Assembly (NCBI GenBank): GCA_964347475.1
Contig: CAYFYY010000004.1
Location: 15,997 to 79,996 of the forward strand
Origin: an uncultured Flavobacteriales bacterium
GTDB taxonomy: Bacteria; Pseudomonadota; Alphaproteobacteria; UBA8366; JADFVY01
Reading direction: 5' to 3'
DNA length: 64,000 bases
Below, in pieces: positions 11,846 to 29,784 of this stretch; within the stretch, counting starts at the first letter, position 1, and each line of letters starts with the position of its first letter. The translations under genes were made by a program, and so were the position numbers. The notes under the pieces are model-generated. The model was not told the DNA's origin, did no database searches, and saw only the letters and a program-made list of their open reading frames with translations.

Positions 11846-12889
11846 TTGGCTGTCGTCAGCGCCGAGACGAAAGGTCGCGCGGACGTGTCCGCGCAGTCCG
11901 CGACGGACACCAAGCCGTCGCTGGACGCATTGCACGGTCTCGTCGCGAATGACTTGGCGGCCGTCAACCAGCTGATCATCGACAATATGCAGAGCCCGGT
12001 GGCGCTGATCCCGCAACTCGCCGGCCACATCGTCGCAGCCGGGGGAAAGCGGCTGCGCCCGATGGTGACACTGGCAGCGGCCAGGCTTTGCGGCTACGAG
12101 GGCCAGCGGCAGCAGGCGCTCGCCGCCTGTGTCGAGTTCATTCATACCGCAACCTTGCTGCACGACGACGTGGTCGACGAGTCGCTGCTGCGGCGCGGCC
12201 GGGACTCGGCGAATGCGGTCTGGGGTAACCAGGCGTCGGTCCTGGTTGGTGACTTCCTGTTTTCGCGGGCCTTCCAGCTGATGGTCGCGGATGGCTCGCT
12301 GGAGGTGCTGCGGATCCTCTCCAACGCCTCCGCGGTGATCGCCGAGGGCGAGGTGCTGCAACTGGTCACCACCAACGACACGGCGACGGACGAGGACGCC
12401 TATCTCGAGGTGATCCGCTGCAAGACCGCGACCCTGTTCGCCGCGGCGGCGGAGATCGGCGCCGTCGTCGCGGACAGGCCGGCCTCCGAGCAGCGGGCCC
12501 TCGCCGAATTTGGGATGAACCTCGGCATCGCTTTCCAGCTGATCGACGATGTCCTGGATTACTCGGCGCTCCAGGCGAAGCTGGGCAAGACGGTGGGCGA
12601 CGACTTCCGTGAAGGCAAGATGAGCCTGCCCGTGGTGTTGGCCTTCGACCGCGGCGACGCCGAGGAGCGCCGCTTCTGGACCCGTACCCTGGAGCGCATG
12701 GAACAGGACGAACGGGATCTCGGCCATGCCATCGCATTGCTGCACCGTCATGGCGCTCTGGACGAGACCGCGGCCCGGGCCCGCCACTATGCGGAAAAGG
12801 CCAAACGGTCGCTTGTGCTCTTTCCGGCGAGCCCGGTTCGCGAGGCGATGATGCAGGCTGTCGACTTCGCGGTTGACAGGGCCTACTGA
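11846..12889 (+). CDS. ispB: long-chain polyprenyl diphosphate synthase (octaprenyl/decaprenyl)
   Basis: Both aspartate-rich motifs are present: LLHDDVVDES and FQLIDDVLDY. Confidence 0.9.
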   Translation: MAVVSAETKGRADVSAQSATDTKPSLDALHGLVANDLAAVNQLIIDNMQSPVALIPQLAGHIVAAGGKRLRPMVTLAAARLCGYEGQRQQALAACVEFIHTATLLHDDVVDESLLRRGRDSANAVWGNQASVLVGDFLFSRAFQLMVADGSLEVLRILSNASAVIAEGEVLQLVTTNDTATDEDAYLEVIRCKTATLFAAAAEIGAVVADRPASEQRALAEFGMNLGIAFQLIDDVLDYSALQAKLGKTVGDDFREGKMSLPVVLAFDRGDAEERRFWTRTLERMEQDERDLGHAIALLHRHGALDETAARARHYAEKAKRSLVLFPASPVREAMMQAVDFAVDRAY

Positions 12890-12910
12890 CAGCGCGGTCG
12901 ATCCCGGAGA

Positions 12911-13474
12911 TCAGAAGGACGAGTCCGGCTGATTGAGAAACTCCGCCTCATCAGGCGTCGTCGTGCGTCCGAGGACGTCGTTTCGGTGCGGGAACCGCCC
13001 GAAGCGGTCGATGATCCGCTTGTGGGCCTCCGCCCATTTCACCAGCTCGGTGTCGCCGGTGGCCGCATAGAGCGCGACCGACAGGGCCTGGTCGGCGGGA
13101 TCCTCGCTATGCTGCAGCGGCATATAGAGAAACTGCCGTTCCCGCACCGAAAGCCCCACGTCGAACTTCCTGTCCAGCGCGTAGCGCAGGACCGTGCGTG
13201 CGGCCGCATCGGTGGCGAACGCGCGGGCGTCGCCGCGAAACATGTTGCGCGGAAACTGATCGAGCACGATGACCAGCGCAACGCAGCCGGCCGGCGTCTG
13301 GCGCCACCCGTCGAGCGCGCCCGCGGCGGCCCGCCGGTACAATCCGGCAAAACGCGTGCGTACCGTCGCGTCGAACGCGGCGTCCCTCTTGAACCACCGT
13401 TCCAGCAACGTCTCTGTGAACCAGAAGTCGAGCACCGCGCGCGCCTCGGCCGGAACCTCTGTGCTCAACGCCAT
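12911..13474 (-). CDS. DUF924 family protein
   Basis: From the internal ATG at 13474 the sequence reads MALSTEVPAEARAVLDFWF...LDQFPRNMFRG...RFGRFPHRN, typical of DUF924. The upstream part of ORF 12911..13921 runs through the tRNA gene and is not coding. Confidence 0.85.
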   Translation of the reverse strand: MALSTEVPAEARAVLDFWFTETLLERWFKRDAAFDATVRTRFAGLYRRAAAGALDGWRQTPAGCVALVIVLDQFPRNMFRGDARAFATDAAARTVLRYALDRKFDVGLSVRERQFLYMPLQHSEDPADQALSVALYAATGDTELVKWAEAHKRIIDRFGRFPHRNDVLGRTTTPDEAEFLNQPDSSF

Positions 13475-13527
13475 CCCTCGGCCCTTGCTCTCGCCCGTTC
13501 CAGAGGTTATATAGCGGGCCTTCCCGC

Positions 13528-13604
13528 CGGAGTGTAGCTCAGCCTGGTAGAGCACCGTCTTCGGGAGGCGGGGGCCGGTGGTTCGAATCCACTCACTCCG
13601 ACCA
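13528..13604 (+). tRNA. tRNA-Pro (anticodon CGG)
   Basis: A 77-nt cloverleaf folded by hand: acceptor CGGAGTG/CACTCCG, D-arm GCTC-AGCCTGGTA-GAGC, anticodon arm CCGTC-TTCGGGA-GGCGG, T-arm GGTGG-TTCGAAT-CCACT, and an encoded ACCA end. Confidence 0.93.
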
Positions 13605-13610
13605 AAAGAA

Positions 13611-13634
13611 CCCCCCGGGAAACCGGGGGGTTTT
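13611..13634 (+). terminator. rho-independent terminator after tRNA-Pro
   Basis: CCCCCCGG-GAAA-CCGGGGGG is a perfect 8-bp GC stem, followed by TTTT. Confidence 0.7.
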
Positions 13635-14103
13635 CGCGTTGCACCAGGGCGATGGGTTCCCGTGCCGCGCCCGAAGGATCTGCATGTGGTCCACAGTGTC
13701 GCAGCAAGCGACGCATCGATGGCATCGCAGTTTCGAACGCCACTCCCTTGGTATTGTCGCGACCAAGTTTGGGGGCGCCGTGGGCCGACCCGGCTGATAC
13801 GCAATGCCGGCATGTTCGGTGGCCGGCCGCGAACGGCCTGTCGCCTGGCCCGTCGTCGGTCCCGCCGCATCGGAAGTCGCCCAGCTTCGGGTTGTGGAGC
13901 GCGCGTAATTCGCTGCGGCAAAACATACTCTCTTTACGCTTCCTTTACCCAACAGTGGAATGGTTGACGAGTGCCCCATGACTTCGTTCGCGCATTCGTA
14001 GAGTAGGATTACGCCACGGCCTGCGCATCGGGGACATCCATACTCTCGTATTTGTGCACCGATACGGGCCAGCTGCATCATCCAAGTCAGGCACGGCCGA
14101 TCC

Positions 14104-14496
14104 ATGAGCGACAAGACTTCTTCGATCCTGATCATAGATGACGACGAACTGCTGATCACGCTGCTGGAGCACAAGCTCGGTCAGCGTGGGCTGTCGGTGA
14201 CGAGCGCCAACGACGGACAGGACGGCCTCTTGGCGGCCATCGAAGAACAGCCCGATCTGGTGGTACTCGACGTCATGATGCCGACCATGGACGGCTTCGA
14301 AGTGCTGCGCCGCATGAAGGAACACGAGCGCACCCAGGATATTCCGGTCATCATGCTGAGCGCCAAGCGTCTCGAGGACGACGTGGTGAACGGACTGAAC
14401 CTCGGCGCCGCCGACTATCTCGTCAAGCCGTTCATGCCCGAGGAACTGCTGGTCAAGATCCAGAGGCTGCTGAGAGAAAAATGGATGCCCGCCTGA
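14104..14496 (+). CDS. single-domain response regulator (CheY-like receiver)
   Basis: 130 aa with receiver signatures ILIIDDDE, LVVLDVMMPTMDG, SAK and YLVKPF. There is no output domain. Its 3' end overlaps the next gene by 16 nt. Confidence 0.9.
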   Translation: MSDKTSSILIIDDDELLITLLEHKLGQRGLSVTSANDGQDGLLAAIEEQPDLVVLDVMMPTMDGFEVLRRMKEHERTQDIPVIMLSAKRLEDDVVNGLNLGAADYLVKPFMPEELLVKIQRLLREKWMPA

Positions 14497-15788
14497 CGCC
14501 CTGCGGCGGACGGCGTGGTTCGCTGCTCTGCGGGATTCTCTCGTTCGTCCTGTGGGCCGCACTCGCGGCGCCCGCCTCGGGCAGCGAATTCCAACGCGCG
14601 TACGAAGAGGCGGTCCAGGCCCAGCAGCGGGGCGATCTCGCAACAGCCGCGGTGAAGTTCGAAACGGCAAGCAGGATCGCCCCCGCAAGTGTCGACGTCC
14701 TGGTGCGGCTGGCCCTGGTCCGCGGGCAGCTGCGCGAATTCGACCGTGCGCTGTCGACCATTGACCGGGGTCTTCGCATCGCACCACGGAACACCGATCT
14801 GCGGCTGGCCCGTGCCAGAATCTTGGGCTGGGCCGGCCGGAATGGAGAGGCAATGCAGACGGTGGAAGCGGTCATCACTGAGCAGCCGCAGAACGCGGAG
14901 GCACGCGCGATCAAAGGGCGCATCGCGTTCTACGAGGGCCGGCTCGATGCGGCCGATGCCAGTTTCGCGATAGCGCTCAAGCTCGAGCCGGGCAATGCCG
15001 AAGCCGCAGCCGGACGGGCCGAAGTTGCCCGCGCCCGGCAGGGAGCTACGCGCGCGCATCCAGCCGGGGCGGCGACCGGCACCCCGCGGTGGCGCATCGA
15101 TGTCGGTTATCTGCACAGCCGGTTCTCCCGCGTGAACCTGGAAAACTGGCGCGAAGGGTTCATTCGTGTCGAGCATCGCTGGCCCAGCCGAACGGCGCTC
15201 AGCCTGCGCGTCGATACCAGCAATCGTTTCGGTTCGACGGAGACCGCCGTCGGTGCTGGCATCACGCAGCACTTCGGTGACGCCTTTACCGCCTATGCCG
15301 AGGGCTCGGTATCACCAGCGGCCGACTTCCTGCCGCGATGGACGGCTTTGGCGGGGGGGCGGCTGCGGGTTGCCGAAGGCGGCGGGCCGGTCGGGCCACT
15401 GCTGCTGGGCGCAGACCTCCGTCACAAAAGCTATGCGACAGGGGACATAGAGAATTTGGATCCGGGACTCGAGCTGTACGGATTCGATGGCAGGGTCTGG
15501 CTGACGGGCAGATGGATCAACGCGTTCGACCGTGAGGCCGATGCGCGCCTCGCCGGCTGGTTCGCCCGTCTCGACTGGCAGCTGGCTGCGCCATTCCGGG
15601 TGTTCGCAGGATTCAGCGACGCGCCGGAAACAGAGGCGGGCATCACGGTCGACACGCAGAGCACGTTCGGCGGCCTGGCATTCGACGTCACTCAAAGCGT
15701 CCGCCTGAATGCCAGCGCTGCACGCGAAGATCGTGAAAATTCATACATTCGCAATGTCTTTGGTGTGTCATTGACGCTGCATTTCTGA
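14481..15788 (+). CDS. outer-membrane TPR + C-terminal beta-barrel protein (PgaA/NfrA/YaiO-like polysaccharide export porin)
   Basis: It has a signal peptide and about four TPR-like helical repeats. From ~15086 the sequence turns amphipathic (RWRIDVGYLHSRF...) and ends in the OMP-type terminus SLTLHF. Confidence 0.7.
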   Translation: MDARLTPCGGRRGSLLCGILSFVLWAALAAPASGSEFQRAYEEAVQAQQRGDLATAAVKFETASRIAPASVDVLVRLALVRGQLREFDRALSTIDRGLRIAPRNTDLRLARARILGWAGRNGEAMQTVEAVITEQPQNAEARAIKGRIAFYEGRLDAADASFAIALKLEPGNAEAAAGRAEVARARQGATRAHPAGAATGTPRWRIDVGYLHSRFSRVNLENWREGFIRVEHRWPSRTALSLRVDTSNRFGSTETAVGAGITQHFGDAFTAYAEGSVSPAADFLPRWTALAGGRLRVAEGGGPVGPLLLGADLRHKSYATGDIENLDPGLELYGFDGRVWLTGRWINAFDREADARLAGWFARLDWQLAAPFRVFAGFSDAPETEAGITVDTQSTFGGLAFDVTQSVRLNASAAREDRENSYIRNVFGVSLTLHF

Positions 15789-15828
15789 CGGCAATGTGGC
15801 GACTGCGATTTGTCGAAAGGGTCCGGCA

Positions 15829-16950
15829 ATGACACTCCTGGCAACAATCTGGTGGGTCTCCGCCGTGCTGATGGCGGTCCCGCTGGTTATGCTGGGGATA
15901 TTGGTTCTTCGACGCCTGTATCAGGAACGCGCCGGTCGACGATTGGCGGAGCGCAAGAAGGCGTTGACGCTCTTGGCGATGATCTATCTGGAAGCGCCTG
16001 TCGACGACACACGAATCCGGGAAATCTGCGGTGACTTCAATCTGACTTTGCTGCACAAGATTGCGAGCGCGCTGGTTCAGGGAAGGCCTAGTAAAGCCCA
16101 GCTGCGCATCGACCTCCGCCTGCTCCGCGACATCATTCAGGACCTTCTGGGGTCGGTTCGCGGGGAAACCCGGGAACGGCTCGTCAATTTGCTGCGCACC
16201 ACGTTGGCGCGACAGTTCTGCCTGGCCGATCTGCGCAATCGCCGCGTCAACACGCGGATCAGCGCGATCGAGACGCTATCGCTTATCCCCGATCCGGAAG
16301 TCATCGACGCACTCCGCGACATGCTGGATGATCCGGAACCCGATGTTCGCCTCGCCGCGGCACGCAGCCTGGTCACTCTCGGGCCGAATCTGACACTGGA
16401 TGACCTCGTCGGAAAGCTGGATATCGGCGGCACGATCCGCTCGCGGTCGCTTCGCGACATCTTCCGCATTTTCGCGTCCTACAACGCCGCGGACCTGATG
16501 CTCCTGCTGGACCGCAATCCGCCGGACCTGACCGCCGCACTCGCCATCTATGGCCTCGGGACGGCGCAGGATTACGATGCCGTCTCAGTGATCGCCAGCT
16601 GCGCCAGCTGGCCATCGATCGATGTTCGCGCCGAAGCCATGCGCGCCCTCGCCGCAATTGGCCATCCTGGCGCGGAGCCGGCGGTCCTGCAGGGGTTGCA
16701 CGACGACGCCTGGGAGGTGCGCACCGAGGCCGCGATCTGCGCCGGACGCATTCCGCTGCCCAATGCCGTACCGCTTCTGCGCGAGCGGCTCGAGGATATC
16801 GAATGGTGGCCCCGCTTCCGCGCCGCCGAGGCCTTGCGCTCGATTGGAGATGCGGGCCGGCGGGCGCTGGAGGCCGCCCGGCTGGGGAGCGGACGATCCG
16901 CCAGCATTGCCGACATGATCCTGGCCGAGGAGAGGGCCGCGGCGGCATGA
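15829..16950 (+). CDS. membrane-anchored HEAT (PBS-lyase type) repeat protein
   Basis: It has an N-terminal TM helix (TIWWVSAVLMAVPLVMLGILVL) and then repeated HEAT units (DPEPDVRLAAARSL, IDVRAEAMRALAAIGHP, DDAWEVRTEAAICAGRI, WWPRFRAAEALRSIG). An alternative GTG start lies at 15796. Confidence 0.7.
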   Translation: MTLLATIWWVSAVLMAVPLVMLGILVLRRLYQERAGRRLAERKKALTLLAMIYLEAPVDDTRIREICGDFNLTLLHKIASALVQGRPSKAQLRIDLRLLRDIIQDLLGSVRGETRERLVNLLRTTLARQFCLADLRNRRVNTRISAIETLSLIPDPEVIDALRDMLDDPEPDVRLAAARSLVTLGPNLTLDDLVGKLDIGGTIRSRSLRDIFRIFASYNAADLMLLLDRNPPDLTAALAIYGLGTAQDYDAVSVIASCASWPSIDVRAEAMRALAAIGHPGAEPAVLQGLHDDAWEVRTEAAICAGRIPLPNAVPLLRERLEDIEWWPRFRAAEALRSIGDAGRRALEAARLGSGRSASIADMILAEERAAAA

Positions 16951-18401
16951 ATGTCGACGATCTCCTCGCCAACGATGCGCTGTCGTCGTATCTCGCGGCG
17001 ACGGCATGGTGGGCCAGTGTCATCATCCTTTGCACGATGTTGCTGCAGAATCTGCTCTACATGCTGCAGCTGTTGCTTGCATTCAAGGTCTTGCGGCGTT
17101 GGCGCTTCGTTCCCAATGCCGTTCGCGCGTGGCGCCAGCTGAGCGACACGTCGTTGCCGATTTCCCTGCTGGTCCCCGCCTACAACGAGGAAGCCACGGT
17201 CGTGGCCAACGTGCGATCGATGTTGGCACTGCATTATCCGCGGTTCGAAATCATTGTGATCAACGACGGCTCCAACGATGCCACACTGCAGACATTGATC
17301 GACAATTACGATTTGCGGCCCATCATCCGGGTTTACGAGGAAGAAGTGCCGCACCGCCCCATCAAGGGGCTCTACGGCTCATCGAGTTACCCCAACCTCA
17401 TCGTTGTGGACAAGGAGAACGGTGGCAAGGCCGACGCCCTCAACGCCGGCATCAACCTTTGCCGGCTGCCGATGTTCTGTGTCGTTGATGCCGACTCGAT
17501 CCTGGAGGCGGATTCGCTGCTGCGAGCGGTGCAGCCGTTCTCCGAGGATCCGGACCGCGTTATCGCGGTAGGGGGAACAATTCGACTTGCCAATGGCAGC
17601 GGCGTGCACGGCGGCCGCGTGGTTTCGGTGGGGCTCCCCACCAAGCTGCTGCCGTTGTTCCAGATCGTCGAATACCTCCGTGCGTTTCTCATGGCACGCT
17701 TGGCGTGGAGCGAATTCAATGCACTGATGCTGATTTCCGGCGCATTCGGAATCTTCAAGCGCAGTGCGGTAGTGGCCGCGGGCGGTTATTCGCACGGCAC
17801 CGTTGGCGAGGATATGGAGATCATCGTCAAGCTGCACCGCTACATGCGCGAAAAGGGCGAGGACTACGTCATTCGCTTCGTACCCGATCCAGTGTGCTGG
17901 ACGGAGGCGCCGGAGACCTTGCGCGTCCTGGGCCTCCAGCGCAAACGTTGGCAGCGCGGGGCGCTCGAAACGTTCTTCAAGCACATCCGCATGCTTTTCA
18001 ATCCCCGCTACGGCGTAGTCGGCATGGTAGGATTCCCGTACATCCTCTTGCTCGATGTGATCGGGCCTCCGGTCGAATTGCTCGGATATTTCCTGATTCC
18101 GGTGTTGTGGTATTTCGGCTTCCTCAGTCCGGAATTCTTCGCCGCGTTTCTGGCAATGACCTTCGCATGGGGTGTGACCATCAGCGTCGGCACGCTGGTG
18201 CTGGAAGAAATGGAGCTGAAACGTTTCCCGAAGACGCGACATCTGGTGTTGCTCGGATTCATCGCCGTTCTGGAAAATTTCGGATACCGCCAGATAAACA
18301 ATTTTTTCCGGGTCGCCGGGTACTGGCAGTACCTGTGCGGCAACAAGGAATGGGGCCGGATGACCCGTGCCGGCTTCCAGCAGGCGCACACGAAGGAATG
18401 A
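16947..18401 (+). CDS. processive family-2 glycosyltransferase (PgaC/IcaA/NfrB-like polysaccharide synthase)
   Basis: It has N-terminal TM segments and a GT-A core with INDGSNDAT and VVDADS. The processive-synthase motif QRKRW lies at 17937-17951, followed by a C-terminal TM bundle. The start ATG overlaps the HEAT gene stop (ATGA at 16947-16950). Confidence 0.88.
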   Translation: MNVDDLLANDALSSYLAATAWWASVIILCTMLLQNLLYMLQLLLAFKVLRRWRFVPNAVRAWRQLSDTSLPISLLVPAYNEEATVVANVRSMLALHYPRFEIIVINDGSNDATLQTLIDNYDLRPIIRVYEEEVPHRPIKGLYGSSSYPNLIVVDKENGGKADALNAGINLCRLPMFCVVDADSILEADSLLRAVQPFSEDPDRVIAVGGTIRLANGSGVHGGRVVSVGLPTKLLPLFQIVEYLRAFLMARLAWSEFNALMLISGAFGIFKRSAVVAAGGYSHGTVGEDMEIIVKLHRYMREKGEDYVIRFVPDPVCWTEAPETLRVLGLQRKRWQRGALETFFKHIRMLFNPRYGVVGMVGFPYILLLDVIGPPVELLGYFLIPVLWYFGFLSPEFFAAFLAMTFAWGVTISVGTLVLEEMELKRFPKTRHLVLLGFIAVLENFGYRQINNFFRVAGYWQYLCGNKEWGRMTRAGFQQAHTKE

Positions 18402-18608
18402 TGTGATGCCGCGCTACGTGCACTGTTGGCCAGATCCGGCTCGCAAGGCCGCGGGGTCGGCTCGGTGGCCGCGCGGGAAGGTCGGGCGCTCGCTTCGCGA
18501 CGTTGTCGATCGGACGCATCGGCCGGGCTCCGACCTGCCGATGCTGAGCATGAAAGCTGGCGCGTTGTGCCGCCTGGGACAGCTACGTGCGAAGGAGTGA
18601 CGGCGGCC

Positions 18609-21600
18609 GTGCGTATCGCAAAATCAATTAACAGCAAGTTCCTCGTGGTCACGTTGCCGTTTGTGTTCCTGTCCTCGATGGCGACGATATTCGCAGTTGG
18701 AACGTTGCAGGTCCGCTGGGAAGAGGGGCATCTGCGAGACCTGATGCGGAGTCATGCTCTGACCCACAGCGAGACCTTGGCCGTTCATATGCGCAGCAGC
18801 GATACCTACAACACCCGAATCATGCTGTCGTATGCTCTCTCCGATATCATCGCGGCGTCGCAGGTCAAGCGGGTTGTCCTACTGAATGCCGCCGACGAGG
18901 TTCTTTTTACCGCCGGACAGTTGCGCGAGAGCTCCGACCGGTACCTGTCCGTCGAGATACCTATTGTCACTGACGAGAATTCCGTCACTCGCGAACTTGG
19001 GCGGTTGCAGATTTTCGCAGATGGCGTCGACCCTTGGCCGATCCTCATCGAGAATACGGTCAACTATTCGATTCTGCTGGTCATCGTCATGGCTTCGATT
19101 ATCGCCAGCATTGCGCTGACCACCCATTACGTCGTCAACCGCCCGCTCGGGCAGTTCCTGGCAGCGGTTCGCACCTCGCAGCCTCTCGCCAAACGACGGT
19201 CGGCGGCCTTCAACCCGCCAGATGAATTGGGCGAGGTGATGGACGCCTACAACGAGATGATGCAACAGCGATTGACCGACGAAGAGACGCTGCAACAGAA
19301 CGAGCATCGCCTGCGTTCGATTCTCGAATCGAGCCCGGTCGGTATTTCCATCGTCACGCTGCATGGTACGCCCTTGTATGCGAACGCCCGCATCCTCCAG
19401 ATGCTTGGCCTTTCCCGCGATGAGTTCTTTCGCTCCAATGCAAGAGATTTCTATGTCAATCCCAGTGATCGGGATGAGATCGTCGAAATTCTGCAGACCG
19501 GCCAGGGCGTGGAAGATGTCGAGGTCCATCTTCGGCGCACAGGAAGCTCGCCCTTCTGGGCCCTGCTCTCGTTCATGCCAACGGATCTGTACGAGGGCGA
19601 GTGCTTTCTCGTCTGGCTCTACGACATCAACGAACGGCGCCTCATCGAGGATGAACTGCATGCGAGCCGGGAGCTTCTGGAAGATCAGGCGCACGAGCTT
19701 CGCGATCTCGCCGATACCTTTGCCGTCCAGAAATCCCGTGCCGAACAAGCAACCGCGGCGAAGAGCGCATTCCTCGCCAACATGAGCCACGAGATCCGTA
19801 CGCCTATGAATGCCATTCTTGGCTTGATCGACCTGACAATGCAGACGGAACTCACCGCCGAACAGGCGAACAATCTGACCAAGACCCGGACCGCGGCCCG
19901 TTCGCTCCTGGAAGTCATCAACAACATTCTCGATATCTCGAAAATCGAGACAGGGAAATTGGAGCTCGAATCTGCGCCATTCGACCTCAACGATACGCTG
20001 AACGGCGTTTCGACCATGCTGGCAGCGGAGGCCGAGCGCAAGAAGCTTGAACTGTTCTTCGTTTCGAAGCCGGACGTTCCGAGATTCCTGGTTGGCGATA
20101 CGCTACATCTCGGACAGGTTCTTCTGAATCTCACCAACAATGCGGTCAAGTTCACCGACGTCGGCAGCATCGTGCTGCGTACCTGGGTCGAGGAGCTGCA
20201 GACCGACTCGGTTACGCTGGGCTTTTCCGTGACGGACACGGGAATCGGCATCAGCGAGGACGTGCAGCCGGGCCTGTTCAAACCTTTCGTTCAGGCCGAC
20301 GACTCGACGACGCGGAAATACGGCGGCAGCGGTCTGGGGCTCGTCATTTCACGGCGCATCGTCGAGCTCATGGGCGGAACGATCGTTCTCGAGAGTCGAC
20401 CGGCTAAGGGGAGCACTTTCAGCTTTACCGCCCAGTTCGGCCTGCAGGAATTGGATTGGGCACCGCCCCCGCTGCCGGCTCGGGCGCCAAGCGTCCTTTT
20501 GATCGCAAGCAGCCGTGAGACCCGCCGAATTCTTCCGGATGCGCTCGCAGCCTGGGGTATGACCGTTCATTCGGCGAATTCGACGACGACGGCCCTGGCA
20601 GAGATCGACCGGCTGGCGCAGATCGCTGAACCGTGCATCGACGTTTTGTTGTTCGACTGCAAGGTTCAGGGTACGAATTGCGTCGAAGCGGCGCGCAAGA
20701 TTACGGATGAACGCAAGCTCGGGTCGGTGGCGAAGGTCTTCCTCCTGCATAGCCAGCACCACGAGGAATTGCGAACGAGCGCCGAGGATTTGGAGCTGTG
20801 TGAATTTGTCGCCAAGCCCGTGCACGTGCAGGTTCTGGTTGACAGCATCCGCGGCGTGGCGCGACAGGATGACGCCGAGGGAAAGCTGGCGACCGAGCAC
20901 GTAGCTCCAGCCATGAACCAGTTGCGGCCAGAGCTGCAGGGTGCCCGGATTCTTCTTGTCGAGGACAACGAAATCAATCAGGAGGTCAGCCAGGCTGTCC
21001 TCAAGCGGGTGGGGCTGCTCGTCGAGACCGCGAACAACGGCAAGGAGGCAGTCGACGCGGTCATTGCCGACGCAACCCGGTTCGACGCGGTATTGATGGA
21101 TGTGCAGATGCCGGAGATGGATGGGCTGCAGGCCACCCGGGCAATCCGGGAACATCCGGGCTTCGCCGAGTTGCCGATCATCGCAATGACCGCACACGCG
21201 TTCGCCGAGCAGCGGCGCGATTGCCTCGATGCGGGCATGAACGACCACATTCCGAAGCCGGTCGAACCGGCCCGCCTGGTCGCGGCGCTCAACAAATGGA
21301 TCAAGCGCGGTCGCAGGTCATCGGAAGAACCGGCGATCGAAGCACCGGCGGATGCGGCCGAGGATGGCGCCTCCGTTTCCGACGAGCTTCCCGGTATCGA
21401 TGTTGCCGGTGCCCTCGAGCGGCTCGATGTCACGAGGGAATTTTTCGACATGCTGCTCAAGAAATTCCATAGCAGGCACGAGGGCGTGGGCGCCGAGATC
21501 CAGGATGCGTTCGCCCGGTCCGACCTGCGGCGTGTCGAGGAAATCGCGCACCTTTTGAAGGGGATGGCGGGCAACCTTTCGGCCGATGATCTGTCGGCCG

Positions 21601-21728
21601 CGGCGGCACGCGTTGAGGCGGCGGCCCGCGACGCGGACGCGGAGAATCTGCCGGAACTTTTGGCGCGCCTGCAAACCGCTCTCGCCCCCGTCCTCGAGTC
21701 GGCTTCACAAGCCGGTGGCGACTCCTAA
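18609..21728 (+). CDS. hybrid sensor histidine kinase (TM-sensor-TM-HAMP-PAS-HisKA-HATPase-degenerate REC-REC-HPt)
   Basis: It has the H-box FLANMSHEIRTPMNAILG, ATPase G-boxes (DTGIGI, GGSGLGL), a receiver (ILLVEDNEINQE...LMDVQMPEMDG...PKP) and an HPt (HLLKGMAGNL). The start is placed at the GTG at 18609, 11 nt after GAAGGAG. The ORF is open from 18426. Confidence 0.9.
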   Translation: MRIAKSINSKFLVVTLPFVFLSSMATIFAVGTLQVRWEEGHLRDLMRSHALTHSETLAVHMRSSDTYNTRIMLSYALSDIIAASQVKRVVLLNAADEVLFTAGQLRESSDRYLSVEIPIVTDENSVTRELGRLQIFADGVDPWPILIENTVNYSILLVIVMASIIASIALTTHYVVNRPLGQFLAAVRTSQPLAKRRSAAFNPPDELGEVMDAYNEMMQQRLTDEETLQQNEHRLRSILESSPVGISIVTLHGTPLYANARILQMLGLSRDEFFRSNARDFYVNPSDRDEIVEILQTGQGVEDVEVHLRRTGSSPFWALLSFMPTDLYEGECFLVWLYDINERRLIEDELHASRELLEDQAHELRDLADTFAVQKSRAEQATAAKSAFLANMSHEIRTPMNAILGLIDLTMQTELTAEQANNLTKTRTAARSLLEVINNILDISKIETGKLELESAPFDLNDTLNGVSTMLAAEAERKKLELFFVSKPDVPRFLVGDTLHLGQVLLNLTNNAVKFTDVGSIVLRTWVEELQTDSVTLGFSVTDTGIGISEDVQPGLFKPFVQADDSTTRKYGGSGLGLVISRRIVELMGGTIVLESRPAKGSTFSFTAQFGLQELDWAPPPLPARAPSVLLIASSRETRRILPDALAAWGMTVHSANSTTTALAEIDRLAQIAEPCIDVLLFDCKVQGTNCVEAARKITDERKLGSVAKVFLLHSQHHEELRTSAEDLELCEFVAKPVHVQVLVDSIRGVARQDDAEGKLATEHVAPAMNQLRPELQGARILLVEDNEINQEVSQAVLKRVGLLVETANNGKEAVDAVIADATRFDAVLMDVQMPEMDGLQATRAIREHPGFAELPIIAMTAHAFAEQRRDCLDAGMNDHIPKPVEPARLVAALNKWIKRGRRSSEEPAIEAPADAAEDGASVSDELPGIDVAGALERLDVTREFFDMLLKKFHSRHEGVGAEIQDAFARSDLRRVEEIAHLLKGMAGNLSADDLSAAAARVEAAARDADAENLPELLARLQTALAPVLESASQAGGDS

Positions 21729-21899
21729 ACATTCGGTCATCAACCGTGCGAGACCTGCACCGCCTACGGCGACGTCGTGCCTGGCATCGTATCAGGGCAC
21801 GCCACGTCCTGTCTTGACATCGACCGGTCAGACGCTGGCAACATGCCAGCCTGTCATTCCCGGCGTGGCGTGGCGCCGGCAATATAGGAGGATCAACGC

Positions 21900-22145
21900 A
21901 TGCGCGCACTGATAGCAGCGGCAATCATGATGACGGGAGCGGCGCTGGCGACAAGTCCCGCCGGGGCGCAACAACCCGTGAAGGGCCAGGATGCGGTCGC
22001 CATTGTGCAGGGCGGCCAGATTCGGGCGTCGTCCAGCGAGGGGTTTCAGGGATTCCTGCTGTTGATCGACTATCGGGGCGTGAACTATACCTGCGCGGTG
22101 ACCGCGGGCGGACAGGTACAGACCTGTTATCCGCTCTACTGGTAG
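21900..22145 (+). CDS. small secreted protein (signal peptide, two Cys)
   Basis: 81 aa with a strong RBS (AGGAGG 8 nt upstream of the ATG). The signal peptide is MRALIAAAIMMTGAALATSPAGA, and the mature ~58 aa contain the spaced Cys pair C-x13-C. Confidence 0.6.
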   Translation: MRALIAAAIMMTGAALATSPAGAQQPVKGQDAVAIVQGGQIRASSSEGFQGFLLLIDYRGVNYTCAVTAGGQVQTCYPLYW

Positions 22146-22229
22146 AAACACAACGGGGATGCGCGGGAGCCACGATGCGCACCGCTGATCGCGGACGGCG
22201 ATCGAGTCCCCCGCCCTGCTGGAGATATC

Positions 22230-22874
22230 GTGCGGAAGCTGAGGTTTGCACTCTGGTTTGCCGTTGCGACGACGATTGCGTTGTTTGCGGCGCTTCAGCT
22301 CATTAACAGGTTGACGCCTCCGCCGGTCGGAATGACGGAGCAGGCGCGCACGGCTGAAGAGATCGCCCGCGAGATCGTCACCGGTGAATTCTCGCTTGTC
22401 GACGGGAACGGCGAAACGGTTTCGGATACCGATTTCCGCGGCTCGTGGCTGCTGGTCTTTTTCGGGTACACCCACTGCCCGGATGTCTGCCCGACCACCC
22501 TGGGTTCCATCGCACTGGTCATGGATGAGCTTGGCAGCGAGGCCGAGTCGTTGCAGCCGCTCTTCATAACCGTTGATCCCGCCCGCGACTCCGCCGATGT
22601 CGTACGACAGTACGCTGCAGCGTTCCATCCGAAAATCATCGGACTGACGGGCAGCGAGCGACAGGTGGCAGCAGCGGCCAGATCGCATCGGGCCTATTAT
22701 GCAAGGGTCGCAGCGTCGAACGGCACGACGACGGACACCGACGATTACGCCATGGATCACTCCGCACATCTCTACCTGATGGATCCGGACGGCGTCTATG
22801 CCACGGCCTTTTCCCAGACGACCACCGTCGACGCGATGGTACGGATTATCCGCGAGCGAATGGCCGGACATTAG
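22230..22874 (+). CDS. SCO1/SenC family copper chaperone / thioredoxin-fold protein
   Basis: It has an N-terminal TM anchor, the motif FFGYTHCPDVCP (CxxxC) and the conserved distal His (DHSAHLYLMD). The start codon is GTG, preceded by GGAG. Confidence 0.88.
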   Translation: MRKLRFALWFAVATTIALFAALQLINRLTPPPVGMTEQARTAEEIAREIVTGEFSLVDGNGETVSDTDFRGSWLLVFFGYTHCPDVCPTTLGSIALVMDELGSEAESLQPLFITVDPARDSADVVRQYAAAFHPKIIGLTGSERQVAAAARSHRAYYARVAASNGTTTDTDDYAMDHSAHLYLMDPDGVYATAFSQTTTVDAMVRIIRERMAGH

Positions 22875-23099
22875 AGGGAACGGCCGCCTTCCCGGCAATT
22901 CGGTCTCCGCCAGCGTCGAGTCGCGCGCCCGACAGGATTCCGGCCGAAATCCGCAATAATTTCCATGTTCTGCGTTGCGGCGGATCGACGCATGAACCTT
23001 TCCGCGGCAGTCTCGCGCGCGGCTGGCTGAACCCGGCGCATACCGCTGTTTCGGGGCGACAGGCGATCGATCGGCCTGGTCCGCGGGTGGAGGCACGGA

Positions 23100-23549
23100 A
23101 CTGAAAATTATTAATTTTTTACAATAAATTACTCTAAATTTCATTCAATCCGGTCCGGCAGCCGCGTTAACCATTTCCGAGAACCTGTGCCAAGATTTTC
23201 CCTTTTTAATATTCCCATCATATCGTAATATCGTATTGTAGCAATGCTGCGCCCGAATCAGAGACTAACCTCTGAACTAGAGTTCCAAAGATGAGCTGAA
23301 GTCTGTGATTTATTGGAGATGCAAAATGAAAGTCACATGATAACAAAACCCATCTCTACTGAAATGCTGAAAAAAGACTTTACAGTTTTTCTTGCGCGGG
23401 GGTAGGATTTCGAAAATCCTTTGGTACGCAGGGGGTTAAACTCGAATTTCAGTGGAGGTGAAATCAAGATTACTTTCCTTGTCCGACAATGGGGCTGCCG
23501 GCGGGGAAAGTAAACCGACACCGACAGGGATTATTGAAGGCAGGGCGAC
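23100..23549. promoter_or_regulatory. AT-rich non-coding leader upstream of the PilZ-methyltransferase gene
   Basis: Hand count gives 16 G+C in 23101-23160 and 22 G+C in 23281-23340, against about 40-43 per 60 nt in flanking genes. It contains the tandem octamer ATATCGTA ATATCGTA (~23219-23234) and the perfect hairpin AGGATTT-CGA-AAATCCT (23404-23420). Confidence 0.5.
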
Positions 23550-25001
23550 ATGCATTCGTACGAACGCCTATCCGGTGCGTCCGGACGGCGCGTGTTTTAT
23601 CGCGCAGAACGATTCAAGGCGCGGGATCTGTTTCCGCTGGCGACGGCCAAGGTCCAAATCGACGATACCCTTCTGGCGCTGGAAGACCTAAGCATGACCG
23701 GTTTCAGTGCGGTTGCTCCCGGTGCTGCGCTCTGGGCTCCGCGCATTGGCGAGGAGTTTGCCATCCGCCTCCTGCTTGACGATATGGTGCTGCACGAGGG
23801 GCGTGCGAAAGTATGTCGAATTGGACGGCAGAAATGCGGCGTGAGTGTCGGCCTCGGGCTGACGTCGGACTACCTTGACATCGCCGACGTCATAAGCAAA
23901 CGCAACCGCCATCTCCTCGATCTCGAAATCGGCCACGGCCTGGTGACCGATGCGGGTCTGGTCGATCCCGAATACAGAAAGCTCAGTGCCGACGTCGTAC
24001 ACCTCTTGCGGAACTTCCGCGCGATCCTCGAGCGACACGAGTTGCGCGGCAACGGTTATTCCTCCCCCCCGCCGCACAGTCCGATCGACGAAGCGCTGCA
24101 GCTTTGTGAGGAACGGATCATTCCTTCTTGGCGCCAGCACTGGGAGCACGCCAACAGTCTCGTCGAACCCGTGATGTCCGATCCGGACCGCTTGCGGGCG
24201 ACGAAACGATTCACCGAGCTCGTCGTGACGCCGGAACTCATGGACGGGCCCATCTGGCGCCGCAGTTACGAGAAGCCACTCGGTTACCCTGGCGATTACC
24301 AGGTGATGAATTATGTCTATGCCTGGCGTCGCGAAGGTGATTCCGCGACCGGCAAGCTGCTTCATCGCGCGGGACTCGAGGTTGCCGAGTGTATCGGCAC
24401 GCGCATGCGGATGATCGAACAGATGATCGCCCACGAGATCGCGGCCCGACCGGCCGGCGAGGTCACGCATATTGCCAGCATTGGAAGCGGCCCGGCGAAG
24501 GAAGTGTCGAATTACCTTCAGTCCGACGAAATTCCGGGTGCCGTATCGTTTACTCTCGTCGACCAGGAACATGAGGCGCTCGAGCAGGCGTACAGCGATA
24601 TCTACCCGCAGACGACGCGGCACGGGGGCCGGGCCGCCGTGCAGTGCCTGAACATCTCGTTCGTCGACCTGGCAAAGAAGAACCGGGTGTTCCCCGGCGT
24701 CGGGCCGCAGGACTTCATCTACAGCGTGGGCATCGTAGACTATCTGGCCGATCATAGGGCACGCAGCCTGGTCGCGTCTCTGTACGACCGACTCGCGCCT
24801 GGCGGGCGGCTGGTCATAGGAAACATGCGCAGGACCAGTCTCAGCAATCTCTGGCCGATGGAGTTCATCTGCGACTGGAGCGTCTATTATCGCGACGAGG
24901 CCGAGATGTGGGCCATGGTAGAGGGATTGTCGGCAAAGTCGCGCAAACTAGAGACCGACCCGACCGGGCGCGTGTACATGCTGACTCTGCGCAAACCCTG
25001 A
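23550..25001 (+). CDS. PilZ domain / class I SAM-dependent methyltransferase fusion protein
   Basis: The N-terminus carries both canonical PilZ c-di-GMP motifs: RRVFYR (RRxxxR, 23586-23603) and DLSMTG (DxSxxG, 23685-23702). The C-terminal half has Rossmann MTase motifs (IASIGSGPAKE, LVDQE, FIYSVGIVDYL, LAPGGRLVIGN). Confidence 0.75.
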   Translation: MHSYERLSGASGRRVFYRAERFKARDLFPLATAKVQIDDTLLALEDLSMTGFSAVAPGAALWAPRIGEEFAIRLLLDDMVLHEGRAKVCRIGRQKCGVSVGLGLTSDYLDIADVISKRNRHLLDLEIGHGLVTDAGLVDPEYRKLSADVVHLLRNFRAILERHELRGNGYSSPPPHSPIDEALQLCEERIIPSWRQHWEHANSLVEPVMSDPDRLRATKRFTELVVTPELMDGPIWRRSYEKPLGYPGDYQVMNYVYAWRREGDSATGKLLHRAGLEVAECIGTRMRMIEQMIAHEIAARPAGEVTHIASIGSGPAKEVSNYLQSDEIPGAVSFTLVDQEHEALEQAYSDIYPQTTRHGGRAAVQCLNISFVDLAKKNRVFPGVGPQDFIYSVGIVDYLADHRARSLVASLYDRLAPGGRLVIGNMRRTSLSNLWPMEFICDWSVYYRDEAEMWAMVEGLSAKSRKLETDPTGRVYMLTLRKP

Positions 25002-25059
25002 GCATCCCCTCGCGCGGCAGATACCGCATCGAGCCAGATCGCAAGGGCAGGTCGGCGCT

Positions 25060-26472: not shown

Positions 26473-26705
26473 AGCGTCACCAACAGTGCTCCTCGCCGGA
26501 CCGGGCCTTTTCGAACACTTTACACAACTGTCGCCGAATATAGTTAACCAATCCTTAGGACCGAGAATCCGTCCTTAACGATTTGGCGGCCACGTCATGC
26601 TTTCGCAGGCTGCTCAAGTATCTGTATCCTATTGAATTCCTGAGTATATGGCGTCGCCGCAATGCTCAGCCGCCAGTCCCGTGTTCGTGTGCCGACGGGC
26701 GCCAA

Positions 26706-28385: not shown

Positions 28386-28570
28386 TGCTCGAGCTCCGGC
28401 CGGAACGCCAACGGGAGCCCCTTAGACGGGCTCACTCGATTGTCGATGCGCGCGGGACCCCGCCCCACCATACCGGTGGCGCGGCCGGTCCTGTGACGGC
28501 GATGATTGGCCTGCGGGGCTTAAGATCGGGTTAACCGGCGTCTCGCGAGCTCGATGCCGTTGCCCGGCCG

Positions 28571-29782: not shown

Positions 29783-29784
29783 GC

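What the first reader, a model, noticed from the sequence alone, without database searches (positions are those of the whole stretch)
15829..16950. Membrane-anchored HEAT-repeat protein translationally coupled to the synthase: candidate new co-factor class for an EPS synthase
The protein has one N-terminal TM helix, followed by a basic stretch and at least four HEAT/PBS-lyase-type units. These are DPEPDVRLAAARSL from ~16330, IDVRAEAMRALAAIG from ~16618, WEVRTEAAICAG from ~16711 and WWPRFRAAEALRSIG from ~16803. Its stop codon overlaps the GT2 start (ATGA), which implies stoichiometric co-production. In characterised synthase-dependent systems this position is held by small activators or receptors (PgaD, BcsB/BcsE, Alg44, PelD). 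I know of no characterised system that uses a HEAT-repeat scaffold there. It could be the docking platform through which the phosphorylated single-domain RR acts on the synthase.
Basis: inference. Interest (0 to 1): 0.55.

Follow-up and report, generated by a model that had tools for sequence, protein, structure and literature searches.

The report
Membrane HEAT-repeat partner of polysaccharide synthase
This gene encodes a membrane-anchored, cytoplasm-facing HEAT-repeat protein that sits directly upstream of one subfamily of polysaccharide synthase in Bacteria and one archaeon and is predicted to bind it, so it looks like a previously undescribed type of synthase subunit.

Summary
Window 15829-16950 (+) encodes a 373-aa protein with one N-terminal TM helix, a basic stretch and a HEAT solenoid (Pfam HEAT_2 2.8e-38; AF2 pLDDT 90.9). 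Its stop overlaps the GT2 start (ATGA, 16947-16950).

The link to the synthase is strongly supported:
- A motif scan blind to neighbours gave 80 loci from at least 10 phyla, and 78 have a P0002-like GT2 immediately downstream.
- The two genes overlap or abut in 68 of 78 loci; 58 have the same 4-bp overlap.
- The TM anchor with positive-inside charge is kept in 71-73 of 78 loci, which places the HEAT domain in the cytoplasm.
- A co-fold passed its controls (ipSAE 0.62 against 0.00). It puts the TM helix against the synthase's last TM helices. It also puts the family's invariant WWxRxRAA motif against the catalytic domain.
- A CheY-like receiver gene lies upstream in 59 of 78 loci, and also in a Haloarcula plasmid.

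The GT2 carries the processive-synthase motifs (D, DxD, ED, QRxRW). It is not an ortholog of PgaC or NfrB.

I found no paper or curated family describing such a subunit. Docking of the response regulator on the HEAT domain is untested. Possible kinship with Xanthomonas XagA or Sinorhizobium ApsH1/H2 could not be settled. The same stretch was already noted in this scan (e1-2411836), on this genome only.

The parts
13528..13604 (+). tRNA-Pro (CGG) about 500 nt upstream of the module. G+C falls from 0.66-0.69 to 0.57-0.64 after it.
   Evidence: ARAGORN; composition profile
14104..14496 (+). Single-domain CheY-like response regulator (P0046, 130 aa). The acidic pocket D12/D13, phospho-acceptor D56, S86 and K108 are all intact.
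   Evidence: Translation. A receiver gene lies upstream on the same strand in 59 of 78 related loci. Annotated as a response regulator in the same position in L001, L002 and L118.
14481..15788 (+). Outer-membrane export component: signal peptide, TPR repeats and a YaiO-family beta-barrel (P0003, 435 aa).
   Evidence: NCBIfam TIGR04390 7.6e-34, 117.7 bits against cut-off 32; Pfam TPR_19 and YaiO
15829..16950 (+). The finding: membrane-anchored HEAT-repeat protein (P0001, 373 aa).
15835..15909 (+). N-terminal transmembrane helix (residues 3-27). It is predicted to pack against GT2 helices 394-441.
   Evidence: Hydropathy; interface list; a TM segment is present in 73 of 78 loci
15910..15960 (+). 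Basic juxtamembrane stretch (residues 28-44, RRLYQERAGRRLAERKK). By the positive-inside rule the C-terminal domain is cytoplasmic.
   Evidence: K/R averages 0.75 before the TM and 5.9 in the 20 residues after it; 71 of 73 loci are positive-inside
16006..16944 (+). Alpha-solenoid of HEAT/PBS-type helical hairpins (residues about 60-372).
   Evidence: AF2 pLDDT 90.9; Foldseek best matches are alphaRep, importin and PP2A-A solenoids
16801..16836 (+). Family signature EWWPRFRAAEAL (residues 325-336). W326, W327, R329, R331, A332 and A333 are invariant in 34 sequences from many phyla. W326, R329, F330 and A333 lie in the predicted contact with the GT2 catalytic domain.
   Evidence: Alignment A5; interface; enrichment p = 0.0013
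16947..16950 (+). ATGA: the HEAT stop overlaps the GT2 start (translational coupling).
   Evidence: Sequence; the same -4 spacing occurs in 58 of 78 loci
16947..18401 (+). Processive membrane GT2 synthase (P0002, 484 aa) with invariant D107, D181-x-D183, E288-D289 and Q331-R-x-R-W335.
   Evidence: Pfam and NCBIfam; alignment A4; the PDB profile search finds BcsA, hyaluronan synthase and chitin synthase
18426..21728 (+). Hybrid histidine kinase (PAS-HisKA-HATPase-REC-Hpt), the likely phosphodonor for the single-domain regulator. The listed TTG start is probably too far upstream.
   Evidence: Pfam. Hpt or kinase genes lie beside the module in L001, L002, L003 and L118.

Best explanation
P0001 is a bitopic inner-membrane protein with a short N-terminus outside and the HEAT solenoid in the cytoplasm. 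It is made in step with the downstream processive GT2 synthase and binds it as a fixed co-subunit.

In the predicted complex, its single TM helix joins the synthase's C-terminal TM helices. Its C-terminal repeats, through the invariant WWxRxRAA motif and the last helix, sit on the cytoplasmic GT-A domain. The HEAT-GT2 pair is the conserved core of a widespread synthase-dependent polysaccharide system. Diderm bacteria add a TPR/YaiO outer-membrane porin.

The system usually carries a single-domain receiver protein fed by a hybrid kinase/Hpt phosphorelay, rather than a recognisable c-di-GMP receptor. The most likely role of the HEAT subunit is to activate or stabilise the synthase and to offer the rest of its solenoid as a protein-binding surface.

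What is shown: the anatomy, the conservation of the gene pair, the conserved coupling and the topology signal.
What is predicted: the physical interface.
What is inferred: that the subunit is needed for activity, and that the phosphorylated regulator acts through it. I put the regulator part at about 0.35.
For: - Gene pairing: 78 of 80 loci found only by the HEAT motif have the GT2 directly downstream. They come from Alpha-, Beta- and Gammaproteobacteria, Myxococcota, Bdellovibrionota, Acidobacteriota, Nitrospirota, Fibrobacterota and Bacillota.
- The same pair is annotated on plasmids of Mesorhizobium, Erythrobacter, Devosia, Deinococcus, Bacteroides and the archaeon Haloarcula.
- From the synthase side, at least 21 of 26 GT2 loci in Xanthomonadaceae-family genomes have a HEAT gene upstream.
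- Coupling: spacing is 0 or less in 68 of 78 loci, and -4 in 58.
- Topology: a TM helix in 73 of 78 loci; K/R 0.75 before it and 5.9 after it.
- Co-fold: ipSAE 0.53, 0.62 and 0.65 (median 0.62), best of three controls 0.00. In the tool's calibration this mark was reached by 58 of 80 solved complexes and 2 of 110 mismatched pairs; those counts hold only roughly here because my own alignments were used. The runs agree in at least 88% of contacts and the partner's pLDDT is at least 77.
- Predicted interface residues of the HEAT protein are more conserved than the rest: soluble part 2.58 against 1.65 bits (p = 0.0016), TM part p = 6e-4. Three of the six invariant columns are in the interface (p = 0.0013).
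- The GT2 has the processive-synthase motifs.
- A receiver gene lies upstream in 59 of 78 loci. In Paenibacillus it is fused to a GGDEF domain and ends 7 nt before the HEAT gene.
Against: - There is no experiment on any member.
- The co-fold is a model. A hydrophobic helix may be laid against a membrane protein easily, and I do not know whether the control partners had TM helices.
- Conservation and the interface prediction are not fully independent, because the model saw the alignments.
- No HEAT-GT2 or receiver-HEAT fusion protein was found among longer proteins.
- Bacillota and the Xanthomonadales-type loci mostly lack the receiver gene, so signal reception cannot be the subunit's universal role.
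- No polymer is known for any member.
Confidence: 0.72

Rival explanations
1. The HEAT protein is a purely structural or assembly partner. It stabilises or activates the synthase as PgaD does for PgaC, IcaD for IcaA and Chs4 for Chs3, and receives no signal. The response regulator acts on the GT2 itself or elsewhere.
For: The HEAT-GT2 pair persists where no receiver gene is nearby, in most of the Bacillota loci, L060, L062 and L080. The most conserved HEAT residues face the synthase rather than a third partner.
Against: A solenoid of about 310 residues is large for a mere stabiliser. The receiver gene is kept in the operon from Archaea to Proteobacteria. A single-domain regulator needs a protein target.
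Confidence: 0.35
2. The invariant Trp/Arg motif (WWxRxR) at the HEAT-GT2 contact forms a small-molecule pocket, for example for c-di-GMP as at the PgaC-PgaD interface, or for a nucleotide sugar. On this reading the HEAT subunit is a ligand receptor.
For: Two invariant Trp and two invariant Arg lie at the predicted interface. In Paenibacillus a GGDEF-receiver fusion sits directly upstream.
Against: None of the three proteins has a known c-di-GMP-binding domain. The conserved regulatory partner is a phosphorelay. The motif is explained just as well as a protein-protein contact. Nothing here tested ligand binding.
Confidence: 0.1
3. The HEAT solenoid tethers the synthase to another cellular structure such as a pole, the flagellar apparatus or the cytoskeleton. 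The model for this is the armadillo-repeat protein CSI1, which links plant cellulose synthase to microtubules. Its job would be placement rather than activation.
For: Solenoids are general protein-binding scaffolds. In Erythrobacter the module is embedded in a flagellar gene cluster.
Against: That context is not conserved in the other loci examined. No candidate landmark gene co-occurs with the module.
Confidence: 0.08
4. The adjacency is only an operon habit. The HEAT protein does something unrelated, such as a PBS-lyase/NblB-like activity.
For: The best NCBIfam matches are NblB and CpcE/F.
Against: Those matches are far below their cut-offs (49.7 against 300 bits) and reflect the repeat type only. 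The protein has a membrane anchor, occurs in non-phototrophs, is paired with the GT2 in 78 of 80 loci, has conserved 4-bp coupling, and passed the co-fold.
Confidence: 0.03

Closest known systems
PgaC-PgaD (E. coli PNAG synthase) and IcaA-IcaD (staphylococci)
   Same: A PgaC-like processive GT2 needs a small membrane partner encoded next to it, and the partner's TM helices pack on the synthase. Both sit in an operon with a TPR/beta-barrel outer-membrane porin (own knowledge of the pga system). NCBIfam PgaC_IcaA is the best family match of P0002 (1.1e-39).
   Different: P0002 scores 136.6 bits against a cut-off of 422, so it is not a PgaC ortholog. PgaD and IcaD are small proteins of about 100-140 aa with no soluble domain. 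PgaD lies downstream of the synthase gene and senses c-di-GMP together with PgaC. Here the partner lies upstream, has one TM helix and a solenoid of about 310 residues. There is no PgaB-type deacetylase and no c-di-GMP module.
NfrB-NfrA-YbcH of E. coli (c-di-GMP-activated synthase system; PMC8669469, PMC8669472)
   Same: A compact synthase-dependent system: a GT2 synthase plus a TPR-containing outer-membrane protein. That NfrA's barrel is YaiO-type is my recollection and was not checked here.
   Different: NfrB matches P0002 only at the N-terminal GT2 motif (E = 0.004). NfrA matches P0003 only in the TPR region. YbcH is unrelated to P0001. NfrB is switched by a fused c-di-GMP-binding MshEN domain, which P0002 lacks.
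PelE of the Pel system (inner-membrane protein with a TPR-like cytoplasmic domain)
   Same: A helical-repeat inner-membrane scaffold proposed to hold a polysaccharide synthase complex together (own knowledge).
   Different: PelE uses TPR rather than HEAT repeats. The Pel glycosyltransferase PelF is a soluble GT4, not a membrane GT2. Signal input comes through the c-di-GMP receptor PelD. No homology was tested here.
Chs4/Skt5 with chitin synthase Chs3 (yeast); CSI1/POM2 with plant cellulose synthase
   Same: Eukaryotic precedents, from own knowledge, for an alpha-solenoid protein (Sel1-like or armadillo repeats) acting as activator or adaptor of a processive GT2 synthase on its cytoplasmic face.
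   Different: These are unrelated lineages. The eukaryotic proteins have no TM anchor of this kind and no operon coupling, and they were not compared by sequence here.
Xanthomonas xagABCD and Sinorhizobium meliloti uxs1-uxe-apsS-apsH1-apsE-apsH2
   Same: Both are small GT2-centred polysaccharide operons whose accessory genes have no stated function. Deleting xagA gives the same biofilm defect as deleting xagB in an rpfG background (PMC3609779). In Stenotrophomonas the module runs HEAT-GT2-TPR/YaiO-sulfatase family, a four-gene order reminiscent of xagABCD.
   Different: Kinship is not established.
- No Xanthomonas-named protein appeared among 134 homologs of the Stenotrophomonas HEAT protein.
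- KEGG lists XagA without a COG (PMC9040811).
- Hits to the xagA primer were not GT2 loci.
- P0001 and P0003 gave no tblastn hit on any Sinorhizobium plasmid record, and P0002 hit pSymB only weakly, in a different cluster.
- The primary papers are not held.

Membership tests
HEAT / PBS-lyase-type alpha-solenoid repeat proteins (Pfam PF13646, PF02985, PF03130) | Tandem helical-hairpin repeats scoring above the Pfam gathering thresholds | tested here: met
   HEAT_2 130.5 bits against 27.7; HEAT 42.7 against 23.5; HEAT_PBS 43.2 against 20.9
HEAT / PBS-lyase-type alpha-solenoid repeat proteins (Pfam PF13646, PF02985, PF03130) | Solenoid fold | tested here: met
   AF2 model with pLDDT 90.9 and about 19 stacked helices; Foldseek gives alphaRep at E 3e-7, plus importins and PP2A-A
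Phycobilin lyase / NblB family (CpcE, CpcF, NblB) | Score above the NCBIfam equivalog cut-off | tested here: not met
   NblB 49.7 bits against 300; CpcE 24.9 against 330. The protein is membrane-anchored and the locus is non-phototrophic.
Synthase-dependent exopolysaccharide secretion systems | Membrane-embedded processive GT2 with D, DxD, (T/G)ED and Q(R/Q)xRW motifs | tested here: met
   D107, D181/D183, E288-D289 and Q331/R332/W335 are invariant in 34 sequences. The profile search finds BcsA, hyaluronan synthase and chitin synthase.
Synthase-dependent exopolysaccharide secretion systems | Outer-membrane beta-barrel porin with a periplasmic TPR domain in the same operon | tested here: met
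   P0003 has TPR_19 plus a YaiO barrel, TIGR04390 117.7 bits against 32
Synthase-dependent exopolysaccharide secretion systems | Inner-membrane c-di-GMP receptor (PilZ, GGDEF I-site, GAF or MshEN) in the synthase or its partner | tested here: not met
   P0001, P0002 and P0003 have no such domain. A receiver protein with a hybrid kinase/Hpt takes the regulatory position instead.
PgaCD / IcaAD PNAG synthases | The synthase reaches the PgaC_IcaA equivalog cut-off, and the partner is a PgaD- or IcaD-family protein | tested here: not met
   P0002 scores 136.6 bits against 422.3. P0001 has no PgaD or IcaD match.
BcsA-BcsB cellulose synthase | The partner has a periplasmic BcsB domain (PF03170) with a C-terminal TM anchor, and the synthase has a PilZ domain | tested here: not met
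   No BcsB or PilZ match. The topology signal puts the P0001 domain in the cytoplasm.
Nfr system (NfrB/NfrA/YbcH) | Sequence homology to NfrB including its MshEN domain, to NfrA and to YbcH | tested here: not met
   BLASTP E = 0.004 over 52 residues only; TPR-only match to NfrA; no match to YbcH
Physically bound synthase co-subunit (functional class) | Direct binding to the synthase | tested here: inconclusive
   The co-fold passes its mark (0.62 against best control 0.00) and the interface is conserved. This is a prediction, not a measurement.

The most novel reading that the evidence does not exclude
The HEAT subunit is the receptor through which a phosphorylated single-domain CheY-like protein switches a processive polysaccharide synthase on or off after translation. 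This would be a phosphorelay counterpart of c-di-GMP control. It would be conserved as a receiver-HEAT-GT2 cassette from haloarchaea to Proteobacteria and would define a new, widespread class of synthase-dependent polysaccharide systems.
Probability: 0.3. Interest if true: 0.8.

Novelty: new variant of a known kind. Interest (0 to 1): 0.62.

Why it matters
Synthase-dependent polysaccharide systems (cellulose, PNAG, alginate, Pel, Nfr) are central to biofilm biology. All well-studied ones are gated by c-di-GMP through PilZ, GGDEF I-site, GAF or MshEN modules.

This is a compact system found in many phyla and at least one archaeon. Its invariant core is a GT2 synthase plus a cytoplasmic HEAT-repeat membrane subunit, and its usual regulatory partner is a phosphorelay-fed receiver protein.

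If the subunit is required, it adds a new type of synthase co-factor. It also gives a tractable case of two-component signalling acting directly on a polymerase instead of on transcription. In addition it assigns a role to hundreds of genes now labelled only 'HEAT repeat domain-containing protein'. Cultured carriers exist in which it can be tested, including Mesorhizobium ciceri, Sphingomonas, Variovorax, Deinococcus radiophilus and Bacteroides finegoldii.

Tried and rejected
1. S. meliloti APS operon (apsH1/apsH2). I recalled that 'H' might stand for HEAT. The primary papers are not held. Searches for the SMb locus tags found nothing. P0001 and P0003 gave no hit on any Sinorhizobium plasmid record. 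The only GT2 hit on pSymB is a weak N-terminal match inside an acyltransferase/GT2/ABC-transporter cluster. The lead is not supported and not fully excluded.

2. Xanthomonas xagA. I took the Xoc xagA qRT primer from PMC3609779 Table S1 and scanned 401 Xanthomonadaceae-family genomes. The five hits are not GT2 loci. The second primer does not match the two extended loci checked, L116 and L117. No genome of 4.7 Mb or larger shown matched the GT2 at 1e-40, although only 20 of the 175 no-match genomes are listed there. Unresolved; Xag is probably a different system.

3. Fusion proteins as a Rosetta-stone test. Among longer proteins only multi-HEAT giants turned up, with no GT2 or receiver fusion. 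The long open frames listed are in a different frame from the HEAT match, so they are GC-rich read-through rather than fusions.

4. Profile search of 1.84 billion representatives. The counts are inflated by generic HEAT proteins and cannot be used as a family size. Many full-length single-stretch matches of 345-370 aa (E 1e-85 to 1e-98) do confirm a large family.

5. ESM Atlas. It returned only clusters of similar length named 'HEAT repeat', from Bacteroidota, Gemmatimonadota, Pseudomonadota and Bacillota. No functional name emerged.

6. Foldseek against the PDB. Only generic solenoids; no enzyme or receptor fold.
Full report
**What is there.** The + strand of the window carries a tight gene row:
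- a single-domain receiver protein, 14104-14496;
- a TPR plus YaiO-family outer-membrane barrel, 14481-15788 (TIGR04390 7.6e-34);
- the HEAT protein, 15829-16950;
- a GT2, 16947-18401;
- a hybrid histidine kinase with PAS, HisKA, HATPase, REC and Hpt domains, ending at 21728.

The row starts about 500 nt after a tRNA-Pro (13528-13604). G+C falls there from 0.66-0.69 to 0.57-0.64.

**Check of the observation.** The 373-aa product (P0001) matches Pfam HEAT_2 at 2.8e-38 in four stretches. It also passes the HEAT and HEAT_PBS thresholds. Residues 3-27 form a strongly hydrophobic helix and are followed by RRLYQERAGRRLAERKK. An AlphaFold2 model built on 20 homologs is confident (mean pLDDT 90.9, pTM 0.80). 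It shows one long N-terminal helix (2-54) followed by a solenoid of about 19 helices. Foldseek finds only generic solenoids such as alphaRep, importins and PP2A-A. The ATGA overlap with the GT2 start is in the sequence. Orthologs start at MTLL..., which favours the ATG at 15829 over the GTG at 15796.

**Is the pairing with the synthase real?** I aligned 20 homologs (A1). I then scanned one genome per species of GTDB for the family's invariant motif [EV]WW[PVA]R[FY]RAA. This criterion says nothing about neighbouring genes. Of the matching stretches, 260 encode relatives, and the best 80 loci were fetched. They come from Alpha-, Beta- and Gammaproteobacteria, Myxococcota, Bdellovibrionota, Acidobacteriota, Nitrospirota, Fibrobacterota, Bacillota and others.

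A tblastn with the window's proteins shows a P0002-like GT2 (25-97% identity) immediately downstream in 78 of the 80 loci. One exception is a contig end. Three further measurements on these 78 loci:
- Spacing between the HEAT stop and the GT2 start is -4 in 58 loci, -1 in 7 and 0 in 3.
- An N-terminal hydrophobic helix is present in 73 loci. K/R averages 0.75 before it and 5.9 in the 20 residues after it, and 71 of the 73 are positive-inside. The cytoplasmic location of the HEAT domain is therefore a conserved feature.
- A receiver gene lies upstream on the same strand in 59 loci. Most loci without one are Bacillota or truncated contigs.

Annotated records agree:
- Mesorhizobium, Erythrobacter and Devosia plasmids carry receiver, TPR/YaiO, HEAT and GT2 in that order, with Hpt or kinase genes alongside.
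- Deinococcus has TPR, HEAT, GT2.
- Bacteroides has HEAT, GT2, then TPR/YaiO.
- Emticicia has receiver, a weak HEAT protein, GT2, YaiO and an LTA-synthase-family gene.
- A Haloarcula plasmid has receiver, HEAT, GT2.

I also started from the synthase. Twenty-six GT2 loci in 200 Xanthomonadaceae-family genomes show a HEAT gene upstream in at least 21, even with my distant query and only 1.5 kb of flank. One of those 26 loci, L087 from G085, comes from an unpublished genome. Nothing else in this report rests on it.

Among 40 relatives of the window's genome, full-length orthologs occur only in 3 of 4 congeners and one sister genus. Together with the plasmid copies and the drop in G+C, this marks the module as mobile accessory DNA.

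**The synthase.** An alignment of 34 GT2 partners (A4) has invariant D107, D181/D183, D289, Q331, R332 and W335. Together with nearly invariant E288, these are the D, DxD, ED and QRxRW signature of processive membrane synthases. A profile of A4 finds BcsA, hyaluronan synthases and chitin synthases in the PDB. The best curated family is PgaC_IcaA, but at 136.6 bits against a cut-off of 422. E. coli NfrB matches only at the N-terminal GT2 motif (E = 0.004). NfrA matches only in the TPR region, and YbcH does not match at all. The system therefore belongs to the synthase-dependent kind but is neither Pga nor Nfr. None of its proteins has a known c-di-GMP-binding domain.

**Do the two proteins bind?** I co-folded GT2 (A4) and HEAT (A5), using row-matched alignments from the same 34 loci. 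The HEAT protein scored ipSAE 0.53, 0.62 and 0.65 (median 0.62), and the best of three controls scored 0.00. In the tool's calibration the mark was reached by 58 of 80 solved complexes and 2 of 110 mismatched pairs. Those counts hold only roughly here, because my own alignments were used. The runs share at least 88% of their contacts, and the partner's pLDDT is at least 77.

The predicted interface has two parts:
- HEAT residues 4-33 (the TM helix) lie against GT2 helices 394-441.
- HEAT residues 204-207, 326, 329, 330, 333 and 360-370 lie against GT2 residues 68, 70, 126-133 and 198-202 on the catalytic domain.

Across 34 sequences that are only 16-81% identical to P0001, the only invariant HEAT columns are W326, W327, R329, R331, A332 and A333. 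Three of these six lie in the predicted soluble interface of 14 residues (hypergeometric p = 0.0013). Interface residues are also more conserved than the rest (p = 0.0016 for the soluble part, 6e-4 for the TM part). On the GT2 side, F198 and E421 are 97% conserved.

Two caveats apply. The model saw the alignments, and a hydrophobic helix is easily placed against a membrane protein. No similar complex is known to me, so a pass from memory seems unlikely. It remains a prediction.

**How it most likely works.** The GT2 polymerises and translocates an unknown polysaccharide. The HEAT protein, made in step with it through the conserved 4-bp overlap, inserts its helix into the synthase's TM bundle. 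It clamps the catalytic domain from the cytoplasm through the WWxRxRAA motif and the last helix. The TPR/YaiO protein exports the chain in diderms.

The receiver protein has an intact acidic pocket, D56, S86 and K108, and it has no output domain. It must therefore act by binding a protein. The hybrid kinase/Hpt next door is the obvious phosphodonor. The remaining solenoid surface of the HEAT subunit is the most plausible target, but this step is inference and I put it at about 0.35. The pair also exists without a receiver gene in most of the Bacillota loci fetched, so a basal activating or stabilising role is the safer core claim. In Paenibacillus the upstream gene is a GGDEF-receiver fusion that ends 7 nt before the HEAT gene. 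This keeps both the receiver link and a possible c-di-GMP link alive.

**Comparison with what is known.** In function the protein resembles PgaD and IcaD, which are membrane partners of a PgaC-like synthase. It also resembles PelE, a helical-repeat inner-membrane scaffold, and, from own knowledge, the eukaryotic solenoid cofactors Chs4 and CSI1. It is not a member of any of these families. There are no Pfam or NCBIfam hits beyond generic HEAT and sub-threshold NblB/CpcE matches.

Full-text searches combining 'HEAT repeat' with YaiO, 'synthase-dependent', exopolysaccharide, 'family 2 glycosyltransferase', biofilm or 'response regulator' found nothing relevant. Two possible precedents could not be settled. 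One is Xanthomonas XagA, whose deletion mimics a xagB deletion (PMC3609779). The other is S. meliloti ApsH1/H2. The evidence I could gather points away from homology, but the sequences themselves were not available to me.

**Verdict.** The gene encodes a conserved, cytoplasm-facing, membrane-anchored HEAT subunit of a distinct and widely distributed GT2 synthase system. That makes it a new variant of the synthase-dependent kind. The role as docking platform for the response regulator is open.

Noticed in passing
L026:5033-6658 (Paenibacillus tarimensis): The gene immediately upstream of the HEAT gene, ending 7 nt before it, encodes a 541-aa protein with a weak GGDEF domain and a C-terminal receiver domain. 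In this Gram-positive the receiver link is kept as a fusion, which hints at c-di-GMP input.
   Followed up: partly
L062:10536-12938 (Stenotrophomonas) and L120:6029-7996 (Emticicia): A large sulfatase / LTA-synthase-family membrane protein follows the HEAT-GT2-YaiO genes. It is a candidate for modifying the polymer, as BcsG- or OpgB-type phospho-transferases do. It is absent from the window.
   Followed up: no
L002 (Erythrobacter aureus plasmid, record 12656-16549): The whole receiver-TPR-HEAT-GT2 module is embedded between flagellar genes (fliP, flhB, motB), with a PilZ-domain gene nearby.
   Followed up: no
L012:6013-7449 and L059:3105-4565: The GT2 reading frames contain one in-frame stop each (at codon 476 of 479 and codon 305 of 487). 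These are possible pseudogenes or assembly errors in the MAGs. I left both out of the alignments.
   Followed up: partly
window 13528-13604 and 14000-30000: A tRNA-Pro (CGG) lies just upstream of the module. G+C drops from 0.66-0.69 to 0.57-0.64 downstream. Orthologs of the HEAT protein are patchy among relatives (3 of 4 congeners, 1 sister genus).
   Followed up: partly
window 12911-13921 (-): The listed 336-aa ORF runs across the tRNA-Pro gene. Only its C-terminal half (residues 163-332) is DUF924, so the true gene is probably much shorter, about 12911-13435.
   Followed up: no
L034 (Nitrospira MAG): This is the only locus where the HEAT gene and the GT2 are separated, by 1.4 kb. The YaiO-like gene lies between them on the opposite strand.
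   Followed up: no
L122:3092-3982 (E. coli K-12 ybcH): RefSeq now annotates ybcH as 'putative exopolysaccharide secretion system auxiliary component' of the Nfr system. It shows no similarity to the HEAT protein.
   Followed up: yes
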